This document shows, piece by piece, positions 1 through 3,000 of a stretch of 64,000 bases of DNA. Position numbers: made by a program. The stretch lies in the NCBI RefSeq assembly GCF_058153355.1, contig NZ_CM177019.1; one strand, given 5' to 3'. Within the stretch, counting starts at the first letter, position 1. Each line of letters starts with the position of its first letter.

Positions 1-3000
1 TCACCGTCGGATTTACTGCTACGTCGCCCTCAGGGAATTAAACCTAAAAAGAAAATCGTCAAAATTAGAGATTCCGGTTTGACACGGAAAGTCATATCAG
101 CGCTGAAATGACATCACTTGATGATGCTGGTGGACGTGCGCAGGTTGTCGGGAGTCGTCTTATCGTCCTGGCAGACCAGCCGAAATATACAGGCGAAGGA
201 ACGGGCATCAAGAAAATCACGGGCGGCGACCCCGTGGAAATAAACCCGAAATATGAGAAGCGTTTTACGGCGGTAATCAGGGCGGTGGTGCTGGCAACCA
301 ATAACAATCCGATGATATTCACCGAACGGGCCGGAGGTGTGGCACGTCGTCGCGTGATTTTCCGTTTCGACAATATCGTCAGTGAGGCCGAAAAAGACAG
401 GGAGCTACCGGAAAAGATTGCGGCTGAAATCCCCGTTATTATCCGCCGCTTGCTGGCGAACTTTGCCGACCCTGAAAAGGCACGGGCTTTACTCATTGAA
501 CAGCGTGACGGTGATGAAGCACTGGCAATAAAGCAACAGACGGATCCGGTTATTGAGTTTTGCCAGTTCCTGAATTTTCTGGAGGAAGCGCGCGGCCTGA
601 TGATGGGCGGTGGTGGTGACTCTTCCAGGTACACGACCAGGAACAGCCTTTACCGAGTCTATCTGGCGTTTATGGCATACGCCGGAAGGAACAAGCCGCT
701 AAATGTGGCTGAGTTCAGCAAAGCTATGAAACCCGCTGCGAAAGTTTACGGGCATGAATATATTACTCGGAAAGTTAATGGGGTTACGCAGACTAACGCA
801 ATAACAACAGACGATTGCGATGCGTTTTTATAATTTTTTGCAAAAGCCCTCTACTTCCTCTACCTGAATGAAATAAACGCATATTATTCAATATGATAAG
901 TTGGTAGAGGGCTATGTAGAAGGCTAATAAAAGCCCTCTACCTCTTCTACCTGATTTTATCAATTCCAGGTAGACAGGTAGAGGGCTGGTAGAAGGGGAT
1001 TAAAAGCCCTCTACCATGCTGAAAGGTGCGCCATTGCTGGCTTTTTGTGGTGCTTGGTAGAAGTGGTAGAGGGGGGGAGGCACAACTCAAAACTTTTTAA
1101 ACGAGGGGGTAAAAACAAAAATGCACACATCAGGAAAACTTAATAATCAGAAGAAACCACATAACCGCACTATTGACCTTACAGAGCACTGGCTGAGGTT
1201 GGCGATAAAAATCATCGATCGCAACACGGGAGAAGGATACGCAAAAGCACATCCCGAACTGATAAGCGCATTTATGACCACGGCGGCGGCAAACTTTGCC
1301 ACGCTGACAGAACGGGAGATTGCCGAAGCGGAACAGGTAACAACCATCAACGTTAAAACCGGAGAGGTGGAATCATGACAGCACAGATATCAGCTTACGG
1401 GCGGCTGGTGGACGACCCGCAGGTAAAACAGACCAGCAAGGGCACACCGATGACGCTGGCGCGTATGGCGGTATCTTTACCATGCAGCCAGGCACAGGAC
1501 GGGCAGGCGACGTTATGGCTGTCGGTCATCGCATTTGGCAAACAGGCCGACTTCCTGGCTAAACATCAGAAAGGCGACCTTATCAGCGTATCCGGCGCAA
1601 TGCAGGTAAGCCAGTGGACAGGCCAGAACGGCGAAACGCGGCAGGGATGGCAGATTATCGCAGACAGCGTAATCAGTGCCAGAACGGCGCGACCGGGCGG
1701 CAAAAAAGGCCAGCAGGGCCAGACTACTGACGCACTGAACAGGGCGAAACAACAGGCGGGCAATGATGATCCGTACGGGGATAACATACCGTTTTAATTC
1801 ACAACAGCGAACAGACTACTTACTGAGGAAAGTATGACAAAGCTGACCATTAACAGAAAACCTAAAGGTATTTATGACACACCGCAAAAAACGATTCAGG
1901 AGGAACTGGAGCAGCAGGATAAAGCCACTCTGGCACATACAGTGATGCCCAATAACCAGAAAGTGCAACCGAAGCTTACAGAAGCAACACCGTGGCAGCA
2001 TATGACCAGACGCCAGAGAAAGAACCGCAGACGTATTAATCGCCTTATTGAGTTATGGCCAGAACTATTCAACCGGGAAGCACCGAAACCATTAAAAAAA
2101 GGGATATTCGACGATCTGATACAGGATATTGCTGTCAGAGAACTGACCTTTGGTCCCGGGGTGCTACGTGCAGCAATAACATCTTATACACAATGCCCTC
2201 GCTATTACCGTGCATTAATGTCCGGTGATGTACGTTACGACATGAAAGGCCGGCCATGTGGCAAGGTAACACCGAAAGAGCAGCGTGACGCAGAAGCACA
2301 ACTAATGGCGTTGCATGCACAGCGCGAATGCCGGCACAGGACAACCAAGAAAGAGAAAAGTGTATGATTCACGACAGCAAAGCGGAAGCACTGGAAGCGC
2401 GTGGCCTGTACCGGAGAGCGGCGGCGCGGTGGGCTGAGGTCATCATGCTGGCGAATGATGACAAGGCACGGGAGCAGGCGGCAAAACGTCGCGCGGAATG
2501 TATCCACAAGGCAGCACGCCCACCAGCAAGGCAGGATAATTTCGGGGAGATGCGCGAAACCATCAGCCGGGCACATGCCGGGATGGGATTACATCAGCCC
2601 AATGGTAAGGCATTCAGGAAATACCCTGGATCGAAAAACTGCAGTCAGTGACGGAGGCCGGGATTTTTCCCGGCTTTTTTGTGCCAGTAAAAAGCCCGCA
2701 GCCAGAAGTGTTGCGGGCTTTGTTTTTCAGGTGATTGAAGTCAATGGGAAGAACGCGATCATCATGCGTTATCGTTTCATGAATTGCAATGATGTAGATC
2801 GTCATTTCAGTTTATGCAATCATAACCATTGTTTTGTTCAGGAGATATGACTATGAGAAAAGCCAGCGTGAAGCCCGTTTTACTCGCTCGTGATCAGATT
2901 GAAGCATTACAGCGCATCCAGGACGAGGAACGCCGCAATTCTCCGCTGGGGATTGCTCCGAGCATTCATGAGGTTGCCCGGCGTTTAATGCAGCGGGCGC

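What the first reader, a model, noticed from the sequence alone, without database searches (positions are those of the whole stretch)
1375..1797. Satellite-borne SSB paralogue with a variant acidic tail
A 140-aa SSB-like protein ends DDPYGDNIPF rather than the canonical DDDIPF, and lacks much of the Gly-rich linker. The tail mediates partner binding, so an altered tail may retarget host or helper replication proteins.
Basis: partly seen in the sequence, partly recalled or inferred. Interest (0 to 1): 0.3.

Follow-up and report, generated by a model that had tools for sequence, protein, structure and literature searches.

The report
Ordinary SSB gene in a phage satellite
The ORF is a real single-stranded-DNA-binding protein gene in the replication module of an E. 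coli phage-inducible chromosomal island; it is already catalogued and common, and its slightly unusual tail keeps the residues that normally dock partner proteins.

Summary
Window 1375-1797 (+) encodes a 140-aa protein ending NDDPYGDNIPF. It has a confident SSB OB fold (Pfam SSB 65 bits against a cutoff of 26; AF2 pLDDT >90 for residues 1-103). The disordered linker is 27 aa, against 56 aa in E. coli SSB.

"Satellite-borne" also holds. The gene lies in a tRNA-Gly-integrated PICI-type island, just downstream of a P4-family primase and its iteron origin. An 85-aa ORF of unknown function overlaps its start.

It is not novel. The identical protein is in NCBI as "single-stranded DNA-binding protein [E. 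coli]". The gene family occurs in 1820 of 5426 complete E. coli genomes, including the prototype PICI EcCICFT073 and cf-PICI-type elements. A 2023 paper already files SSB under PICI replication genes.

The tail DDP[Y/F]GD[N/D/G]IPF is conserved across the family under purifying selection, so it is functional. It keeps the IPF tip, the Asp at -4 and the aromatic at -6 of E. coli SSB, and the "variant" Asn alternates freely with Asp. Identical SSB alleles sit behind three unrelated initiators. That argues against an initiator-specific (cognate) tail, but does not test retargeting of host or helper-phage partners.

Most likely it is an accessory replication SSB using host partners. Interest is low.

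The parts
1..833 (+). C-terminal part of the island's replication initiator (P4-family primase / DUF5906 / Pox_D5-like). It is cut by the window's left edge.
   Evidence: Pfam Pox_D5 24.2 bits (cutoff 21.4) and DUF5906. TIGR01613 primase_Cterm E 5.5e-15. About 90-92% identical to E. coli genes annotated 'DNA primase family protein'.
842..1075 (.). Iteron-type replication origin between the primase and the SSB module. Copies of GGTAGARG lie in both orientations around A+T-rich stretches.
   Evidence: All 9 matches to GGTAGARG in the 64-kb window fall at 857-1072. About 1.85 are expected in the whole window, and 0 of 100 shuffles reach 9. Repeat families are listed. This matches the published position and layout of Gram-negative PICI origins, 3' of the initiator gene (PMC6092414).
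1121..1378 (+). 85-aa protein of unknown function (PHROG 1231). Its stop codon overlaps the SSB start codon (ATGA).
   Evidence: phrog_1231 E 2.3e-47. No Pfam, NCBIfam or PADLOC hit. 162 clusters; every source name seen is E. coli, Shigella, E. albertii or Citrobacter. No match in phage records. The junction GGAGAGGTGGAATCATGACAG is identical in six E. coli loci. The AF2 model is poor (pLDDT 61, helical).
1375..1683 (+). SSB OB-fold domain, residues 1-103.
   Evidence: Pfam, NCBIfam and PDB hits. AF2 pLDDT >90 and Foldseek hits to SSBs. EcSSB W54, F60 and W88 align with W48, F54 and W81. W40 aligns with C37 and H55 with L49.
1684..1764 (+). Short basic disordered linker, residues 104-130 (TARPGGKKGQQGQTTDALNRAKQQAGN).
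   Evidence: AF2 pLDDT <50 over 108-118 and 121-132. It is the least conserved part of the protein and carries indels: top-residue frequency 0.74 and 12.7% gaps.
1765..1797 (+). C-terminal tail DDPYGDNIPF plus the stop codon.
   Evidence: Family consensus is D-D-P-[Y/F/W]-G-D-[N44/D42/G16]-I-P-F. Mean conservation is 0.88, equal to the OB domain, and 0.98 for IPF. Between the two main alleles, five of the ten tail codons differ only synonymously and one differs non-synonymously, N to D.
1834..2367 (+). ProQ/FinO-family gene immediately downstream, with no terminator between it and the SSB gene.
   Evidence: Pfam ProQ 79 bits. The 36-nt gap contains GAGGAAAGT before the ATG. No + strand terminator-like site lies between the two genes.
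2328..2651 (+). PerC-family transcriptional activator gene, overlapping the ProQ/FinO gene.
   Evidence: Pfam PerC 110 bits. PerC follows the SSB gene directly in CFT073, cf-PICI-type, Klebsiella and strain 35 loci.
2691..2721 (+). Terminator-like hairpin (12-bp stem followed by a T run) that probably ends the transcription unit.
7436..7452 (+). attR-like repeat of the tRNA-Gly 3' end, marking the right end of the island. The SSB gene therefore lies inside the island.
   Evidence: Window TTCCCTTCGCCGCTCCA differs by a 1-nt deletion from TTCCCTTCGCCCGCTCCA, the last 18 nt of tRNA-Gly at the left end of the related island in strain ETEC1738. That strain has an exact second copy at its right end.

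Best explanation
This is a working bacterial-type SSB carried as an accessory gene in the replication module of a Gram-negative PICI, a phage satellite.

Proposed mechanism: when a helper phage induces the island, the primase/initiator opens the iteron origin just upstream. The 85-aa ORF and the SSB gene are translated as a coupled pair in the same rightward gene block. The SSB, presumably a homotetramer, coats the ssDNA exposed during the island's burst of replication. Its conserved ...D-x-I-P-F-COOH tip docks the same hydrophobic-pocket, basic-rim sites on host replisome and repair proteins that host SSB uses (chi, DnaG, PriA and others). In effect it enlarges the SSB pool for the satellite.

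Shown here: the OB fold, the disordered short linker, the conserved tip, the position next to the origin, the overlap of the two ORFs, purifying selection on the tail, and wide distribution in PICIs.

Inferred: ssDNA binding, the oligomeric state, which partners bind, and the benefit to replication.

The gene is helpful rather than essential. Related islands lack it, and published work maintained a plasmid with a construct described as the EcCICFT073 rep gene plus ori.
For: SSB identity:
- Profile, sequence and fold evidence.
- Three of the four EcSSB DNA-stacking aromatic residues are conserved.

Tail:
- It is as conserved as the OB domain, while the linker drifts and carries indels.
- Synonymous changes dominate in the tail codons.
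- IPF, the Asp at -4 and the aromatic at -6 match EcSSB.
- Published work shows that the terminal Phe-Pro and the C-terminal carboxylate enter a hydrophobic pocket ringed by basic residues in DnaG, chi, ExoI, RecO and RecQ. For DnaG-C, affinity fell from 2.4e5 to about 7e4 M^-1 between 5 and 150 mM NaCl (PMC3632105).

Context:
- The order primase, iteron ori, small ORF, SSB, often followed by PerC, recurs in all 9 loci inspected. These include EcCICFT073, a cf-PICI-type element and Klebsiella.
- The origin was located by iterons.
- An identical SSB allele follows DUF927 and AAA_25 initiators whose ori regions are 42% identical, and a 96%-identical allele follows the P4-type primase here. The SSB therefore does not co-vary with the initiator.
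- PMC10111431 places SSB with Primase and DUF5906 in the Replication category of PICIs.

Accessory status:
- The slot holds a RepA-helicase fragment instead of the SSB in otherwise about 91% identical islands.
Against: - There is no biochemical or genetic evidence for any PICI SSB. The PICI papers I searched do not discuss it.
- The pre-tip has fewer acidic residues than EcSSB: 2 Asp in the last 9 against 4. The family-specific Pro-Tyr-Gly is conserved for reasons I cannot explain, so partner affinities could differ.
- EcSSB His55, a tetramer-stabilising residue by my own knowledge, aligns with Leu. W40 aligns with Cys.
- The short basic linker may change cooperativity or condensate behaviour.
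- The role of the coupled 85-aa ORF is unknown.
Confidence: 0.7

Rival explanations
1. Retargeted hub. The family-specific tail DDPYGDxIPF and the short basic linker give the satellite SSB a private set of partners instead of, or in competition with, host SSB partners. Candidates are the island's initiator, the 85-aa neighbour, or helper-phage replication or recombination proteins.
For: - The pre-tip Pro-Tyr-Gly is conserved family-wide (106, 98 and 97 of 114). The next-closest short SSBs mostly carry [P/D]-F-[D/N]-D-x-[I/L]-P-F instead.
- There is a precedent. Phage HK620 SSB, with tail NDYPPF, needs its last six residues to recruit its cognate Sak4 annealase (PMC5928155).
- The gene is translationally coupled to a conserved unknown ORF.
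Against: - The tip residues that occupy partner pockets (I-P-F-COOH), the Asp at -4 and the aromatic at -6 are all kept.
- Position -3 alternates N/D/G/E/S with no sign of constraint.
- An identical SSB allele is found behind two unrelated initiators and a 96%-identical one behind a third. SSB alleles also recombine independently of the 85-aa ORF and the ori: L002 against L007 has the partner 100% and the ori 99% identical but the SSB only 74%.
- Klebsiella PICIs have the SSB with a different upstream ORF.
- These last two points bear on element-encoded partners only. Nothing here tests helper-phage or host partners.
Confidence: 0.12
2. Conflict function. The SSB acts mainly in satellite-helper-host conflict. 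It could interfere with helper replication, or act as a decoy or modulator for host defence systems that sense foreign SSBs. Supporting the satellite's own replication would be secondary.
For: - PICIs carry interference and defence cargo. This island has a Panacea-domain antitoxin pair at its right end.
- Several defence systems are activated by phage SSBs: Retron-Eco8, AbpAB, Hna and DARNA (titles and abstracts).
Against: - No PADLOC hit for the SSB or its neighbours.
- The gene sits next to the origin in the replication block, not in the variable cargo zones at the ends of the island.
- Nothing in the sequence departs from a normal DNA-coating SSB.
Confidence: 0.08
3. Establishment function. 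The SSB protects or primes incoming DNA in a new host, as proposed for SSBs in plasmid leading regions.
For: A relative, 56% identical over the OB domain, lies next to mobilisation genes on Sodalis plasmid pSG2.
Against: - By general knowledge, PICIs travel as double-stranded DNA in phage capsids, so no single-stranded entry step is expected.
- The gene lies in the AlpA-activated rightward block, not in an early-entry region.
Confidence: 0.05

Closest known systems
SSB gene of EcCICFT073, the prototype Gram-negative PICI of E. coli CFT073, and of cf-PICI-type elements
   Same: Same gene family: 83-84% protein identity to the CFT073 and cf-PICI-type alleles, and up to 96% to others. Same position after the initiator and ori, and the same 85-aa ORF overlapping the start with an identical junction sequence. 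Same tail framework, DDPYGDxIPF.
   Different: The CFT073 allele is 136 aa, has a different linker and ends GDDIPF rather than GDNIPF. In CFT073 the gene is followed by PerC and capsid genes, whereas here it is followed by ProQ/FinO and then PerC. The iteron sequences differ.
E. coli chromosomal SSB (PDB 1eqq, 1eyg)
   Same: Single OB fold. W54, F60 and W88 equivalents are conserved. A disordered linker is followed by an amphipathic tip ending I-P-F, with Asp at -4 and an aromatic at -6.
   Different: Only 24% identity in the OB domain. W40 aligns with Cys and H55 with Leu. The L23 loop is 3 residues shorter. The linker is 27 aa against 56, basic and Gly/Pro-poor. The last nine residues hold 2 Asp against 4.
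Phage HK620 SSB, the cognate partner of the Sak4 annealase
   Same: An SSB encoded on a mobile element in E. coli, with a non-canonical tail ending in PF. The tail is required for function (PMC5928155).
   Different: The HK620 tail is NDYPPF and its gene neighbours a recombinase. No annealase or recombinase gene is present in this island, and no cognate partner is known.
Clade of short SSBs (about 125-165 aa) starting MTAQ..AYGRL..DP and carrying ADS[VI]ISARTVRPGG after the OB fold
   Same: 35-57% identity. Same overall architecture, short linker and tail register.
   Different: Most end [P/D]F[D/N]Dx[I/L]PF. The E. coli PICI family has Gly at -5 and Pro-Tyr at -7/-6. I did not examine the genomic context of these relatives.

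Membership tests
Bacterial-type SSB (Pfam PF00436 / TIGR00621) | OB-fold domain scoring above the curated family thresholds | tested here: met
   PF00436 65.2 bits against a cutoff of 26. TIGR00621 65.4 bits against 53.95. AF2 and Foldseek top hits are all SSBs.
Bacterial-type SSB (Pfam PF00436 / TIGR00621) | Aromatic ssDNA-stacking residues equivalent to EcSSB W40, W54, F60 and W88 | tested here: met
   W48, F54 and W81 align with W54, F60 and W88. W40 aligns with C37. F54 is invariant and W48 nearly invariant across the clade.
Bacterial-type SSB (Pfam PF00436 / TIGR00621) | Intrinsically disordered linker after the OB fold | tested here: met
   pLDDT <50 over 108-118 and 121-132. The linker is 27 aa against 56 aa in EcSSB.
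Bacterial-type SSB (Pfam PF00436 / TIGR00621) | C-terminal amphipathic tip, consensus D-D-D-I-P-F | tested here: inconclusive
   The hydrophobic half, I-P-F-COOH, and the Asp at -4 are present. The acidic run is broken (G-D-N). The literal DDDIPF is therefore not met, but the residues reported to enter partner pockets are.
Bacterial-type SSB (Pfam PF00436 / TIGR00621) | Homotetramer that binds ssDNA with high affinity | not testable with these tools
   Only a monomer model was available. EcSSB His55 aligns with Leu49.
Gram-negative PICI (phage-inducible chromosomal island) | Tyrosine integrase at a specific att site, with flanking direct repeats | tested here: inconclusive
   The left end lies outside the window. 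An attR-like copy of the tRNA-Gly 3' end is at 7436-7452. The related island in ETEC1738 has the integrase next to tRNA-Gly and an exact 18-nt repeat.
Gram-negative PICI (phage-inducible chromosomal island) | Primase/initiator gene followed by an iteron origin | tested here: met
   Primase C-terminus at 1-833. Nine iterons at 857-1072. The layout matches that described in PMC6092414.
Gram-negative PICI (phage-inducible chromosomal island) | Unidirectional rightward gene block with AlpA activator and some helper-related late genes, but no full virion gene set | tested here: inconclusive
   All island genes in the window are on the + strand. A head-protease-like gene (DUF2213, weak match to phrog_530) and a TerS-like N-terminus (phrog_57) are present. 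AlpA would lie outside the window; it is present in relatives.
Gram-negative PICI (phage-inducible chromosomal island) | Induction, packaging and transfer by a helper phage | not testable with these tools
   Shown experimentally only for the relative EcCICFT073 (PMC6092414).
P4-like satellite (sensu stricto) | Core genes sid, psu, delta and epsilon alongside the alpha primase (recalled from my own knowledge of the family, not checked here) | tested here: not met
   Only the primase domain is shared. Pfam and PHROG scans of the scanned ORFs between 108 and 7276 gave ProQ/FinO, PerC, DUF2213, a TerS-like protein and Panacea. No matched family carried a P4 capsid-size or Psu-like description. The models for those genes were not checked individually.

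The most novel reading that the evidence does not exclude
The conserved Pro-Tyr-Gly pre-tip and the short basic linker make PICI SSBs a selective hub. They would bind a subset of host SSB partners, or a satellite or helper protein such as the coupled 85-aa ORF. Satellite ssDNA would then be served preferentially, or helper replication starved. That would be a new layer of satellite-helper competition acting through SSB tails.
Probability: 0.1. Interest if true: 0.5.

Novelty: already known. Interest (0 to 1): 0.15.

Why it matters
As it stands it matters little. The gene is correctly annotated in public databases, is present in a third of complete E. coli genomes, and is already counted among PICI replication genes.

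One point may be worth a small experiment. No paper I could find has tested what a PICI-encoded SSB does, although the prototype EcCICFT073 carries one. A deletion or tail truncation there would show whether satellites need their own SSB during the replication burst, and whether the conserved DDPYGD pre-tip changes partner choice. Phage SSBs are now known triggers of several defence systems, so satellite SSBs may also affect which hosts tolerate these islands.

Tried and rejected
- Host-ssb paralogue: rejected. Identity is 24% in the OB domain, and the nearest relatives are a separate clade of short SSBs.
- P4-like satellite sensu stricto: rejected in favour of a PICI type, on gene content and synteny with EcCICFT073 and a cf-PICI-type element.
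- Defence-system component: no PADLOC match for the SSB, the 85-aa ORF or their neighbours.
- Structured RNA or tRNA near the gene: none at Rfam gathering thresholds in 1-12000, and no tRNA in the window.
- Structure of the 85-aa neighbour: the AF2 model was too poor (pLDDT 61) to justify a fold search. It has no match in phage records and only "hypothetical" names.
- Tail conservation as a by-product of an overlapping downstream feature: rejected. The sequence after the stop codon differs between loci (ProQ/FinO, PerC or a terminator hairpin), while the tail codons vary mostly synonymously.
- Exact search for the tRNA-Gly 3' end in the window found nothing within 2 mismatches. Reading the sequence showed the repeat carries a 1-nt deletion.
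- Literature searches for cf-PICI plus SSB, and for satellite plus SSB, found no study of a PICI SSB.
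Full report
**Observation.** Window 1375-1797 (+) is an intact ATG-initiated ORF of 140 codons ending ...QQAGNDDPYGDNIPF. 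GGAGAGGTGG lies a few bases upstream of the ATG. The start overlaps the stop codon of an upstream 85-aa ORF (ATGA), which is the usual arrangement for translational coupling.

The product is an SSB by every test available:
- Pfam PF00436: 65.2 bits, cutoff 26, E 6e-18, residues 4-99.
- TIGR00621: 65.4 bits, cutoff 53.95.
- PHROG 44 "single strand DNA binding protein": E 1.6e-40.
- 26 solved SSBs by sequence, best T. maritima 1z9f at 1e-11 and E. coli 1eyg at 2.5e-6.
- An AlphaFold2 model with pLDDT >90 over residues 1-103 and <50 over 108-118 and 121-132. Its top 50 Foldseek matches in the PDB are all bacterial SSBs.

**Comparison with host SSB.** I verified the E. coli SSB sequence against PDB 1eqq.
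- The OB domains are 24% identical.
- EcSSB W54, F60 and W88 align with W48, F54 and W81. W40 aligns with Cys37 and His55 with Leu49, and the loop between is 3 residues shorter.
- The linker is 27 residues (5 Gly, 1 Pro, 5 Gln, net charge +4), against 56 residues (17 Gly, 9 Pro, 11 Gln, net +1) in EcSSB.
- The tails align without gaps: MDFDDDIPF (EcSSB) against DPYGDNIPF. I-P-F, the Asp at -4 and the aromatic at -6 are kept. The Asp residues at -3, -5 and -7 become Asn, Gly and Pro.

**Where it sits.** The low-GC block from about 10 to 40 kb is the ETT2 type III secretion island of E. coli, 95-99% identical to many genomes. Left of it lies a mobile island whose right end I could map. Window 7436-7452 (TTCCCTTCGCCGCTCCA) repeats the 3' end of tRNA-Gly with a 1-nt deletion. 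In strain ETEC1738 a roughly 91% identical island starts with an integrase next to that tRNA and ends with an exact 18-nt copy of the repeat. An IS66-family element is inserted just beyond, from about 7681.

The related islands read: integrase, AlpA-like HTH, Bro/AntA, Icd-like, DUF4222, primase, a variable slot, ProQ/FinO, PerC, DUF2213 (head-protease-like), TerS-like. That is the Gram-negative PICI layout.

In the window:
- The primase C-terminus occupies 1-833.
- An iteron array follows. All nine matches to GGTAGARG in the 64-kb window lie at 857-1072, against 1.85 expected, and no shuffle reaches nine. [quoted passage not shown]
- The 85-aa ORF and the SSB gene come next, then ProQ/FinO and PerC without an intervening terminator. 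A strong terminator-like hairpin lies at 2691-2721.

**How common it is.**
- The identical protein is in NCBI as "single-stranded DNA-binding protein [Escherichia coli]", and 725 clusters match at E<=1e-5.
- The gene matches 1820 of 5426 complete E. coli genomes, with up to six places per genome, almost always annotated as SSB.
- One match is in CFT073, in an island between roxA and phoQ that carries a capsid gene and a head-decoration gene. This gene content matches EcCICFT073, the experimentally characterised prototype PICI, which encodes capsid c1499 and decoration protein c1500. Its SSB is 136 aa and ends GGDDPYGDDIPF.
- The same small-ORF-plus-SSB module occurs in a cf-PICI-type element with capsid, protease, portal, connector and terminase genes, and in IHE3034. 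It also occurs behind DUF927 or RepA/AAA_25 initiators and in a Klebsiella element.
- All nine loci I inspected were PICI-like. A more distant relative sits on a mobilisable Sodalis plasmid.
- Mageeney and colleagues already group "Primase, SSB and DUF5906" as the Replication category of PICIs (PMC10111431).
- Fillol-Salom et al. never mention the SSB. [quoted passage not shown]

**Is the tail special?** Among 114 full-length family members the tail reads D(107) D(106) P(106) Y/F/W(98/11/5) G(97) D(113) N/D/G(44/42/16) I(109) P(112) F(114).
- Mean conservation is 0.88 for the tail, the same as for the OB domain, and 0.98 for IPF. The linker scores 0.74 and carries indels that give 136-, 140-, 141- and 149-aa variants.
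- Between the two main alleles, five of the ten tail codons differ only synonymously and one differs non-synonymously (Asn to Asp). The sequence after the stop codon differs completely between loci.
- The tail is therefore under purifying selection at the protein level and is functional.

More distant short SSBs (35-57% identity) mostly end [P/D]-F-[D/N]-D-x-[I/L]-P-F, so variability at -3 is general. What is specific to the E. coli PICI family is Gly at -5 and Pro-Tyr at -7/-6.

Published work on DnaG, chi, ExoI, RecO and RecQ places the terminal Phe and Pro and the C-terminal carboxylate in a hydrophobic pocket ringed by basic residues. For DnaG-C, affinity fell from 2.4e5 to about 7e4 M^-1 between 5 and 150 mM NaCl (PMC3632105). 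The acidic tip, not the linker, is reported as the partner-binding element (PMC7145534 abstract). On that basis the PICI tail should still dock in the standard sites, perhaps with altered affinities. This step is inference.

**Does it co-vary with a satellite partner?** It does not.
- One SSB allele (P0002, 96% identical to the window's) is encoded unchanged behind a DUF927 initiator and behind an AAA_25 RepA-like helicase. The ori regions of those two loci are only 42% identical.
- Conversely, IHE3034 and CFT073 share a 100% identical 85-aa ORF and a 99% identical ori, but their SSBs are 74% identical.
- Klebsiella has the SSB, ending PPFDDSIPL, behind an unrelated upstream ORF.
- In ETEC1738 and PapRG-04-4 the slot holds a RepA fragment and no SSB at all.

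The SSB is therefore a shuffling, dispensable accessory of the replication block and is not matched to one initiator. This argues against specificity for an element-encoded partner. It does not test host or helper-phage partners.

**Best explanation (confidence about 0.7).** This is a conventional SSB supplied by the satellite for its own burst of replication after induction. It coats ssDNA and recruits host replisome and repair proteins through a canonical IPF tip. It is helpful but not essential.

**Rivals.**
This is supported only by the conserved Pro-Tyr-Gly pre-tip, the coupled unknown ORF and the HK620 SSB-Sak4 precedent.
- A conflict or defence-related role (about 0.08). Phage SSBs trigger Retron-Eco8, AbpAB, Hna and DARNA, but there was no PADLOC hit.
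- A role in establishment after transfer (about 0.05).

**Limits.** No tool here could test ssDNA binding, oligomeric state or peptide-partner affinity. Only single-chain structure prediction was available. The left part of the island is outside the window. The 85-aa ORF remains uncharacterised: PHROG 1231, unknown function, with a poor AF2 model.

**Verdict.** The gene is ordinary and already catalogued, and interest is low.

Noticed in passing
window 1121-1378 (+): A conserved 85-aa ORF of unknown function (PHROG 1231). Its stop overlaps the SSB start, and the junction sequence is identical in six E. coli loci. Every source name seen for its relatives is E. coli, Shigella, E. albertii or Citrobacter. 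Its N-terminal third comes in two or three variants, while the C-terminal two-thirds is nearly invariant. Klebsiella islands have an unrelated ORF in the same place.
   Followed up: partly
window 842-1075: A dense array of GGTAGARG iterons in both orientations between the primase and the SSB module. It is probably the island's replication origin. The iteron sequence is not shared with EcCICFT073 (0 matches in L007).
   Followed up: yes
window 1834-2651 (+): A ProQ/FinO-family RNA-chaperone-like gene and an overlapping PerC-family activator gene lie directly downstream of the SSB gene, apparently in one operon ending at a hairpin at 2691-2721. PerC follows the SSB gene in several other PICIs. 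ProQ/FinO is present only in the tRNA-Gly/ETT2-adjacent island type.
   Followed up: partly
window 6351-7276 (+): A SocA/Panacea-domain antitoxin-like gene (161 aa, Pfam 73.9 bits) overlaps a 147-aa ORF that has no family match. This is a possible toxin-antitoxin or defence cargo at the right end of the island. The related island in ETEC1738 carries different genes there.
   Followed up: no
window 7436-7452 and about 7681-10100: An attR-like copy of the tRNA-Gly 3' end with a 1-nt deletion, which might impair excision. An IS66-family (ISEc8-like) insertion, with its transposase at 7714-9285 on the minus strand, lies between the island and the ETT2 flank.
   Followed up: partly
window 3338-4385 (+): Two adjacent ORFs match different parts of the same 545-position PHROG 6216 profile, in non-collinear order: 3338-3649 matches positions 450-544 and 3714-4385 matches positions 115-328. 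The second ORF also matches DUF2213 and, weakly, a head maturation protease. This may be a rearranged or split capsid-morphogenesis gene.
   Followed up: no
window about 10000-40000: A low-GC block (31-42% GC) that is the ETT2 type III secretion gene cluster (EscV, SctC, SctN, PrgH/EprH), preceded by a GH15 glycoside hydrolase gene. It is 95-99% identical to many E. coli genomes.
   Followed up: partly
L001 7052-7459; L006 14702-15109: In otherwise about 91% identical islands, the slot occupied here by the 85-aa ORF and the SSB gene holds the C-terminal fragment of a RepA-family helicase pseudogene. This is evidence of module exchange at that point.
   Followed up: partly
window 1729-1746 (SSB residues 119-124): AF2 places a short helix (DALNRA) inside the otherwise disordered linker, at low confidence. 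The segment TDALNRAKQQ is conserved in the 140-, 141- and 149-aa variants and is absent from the 136-aa variant.
   Followed up: no
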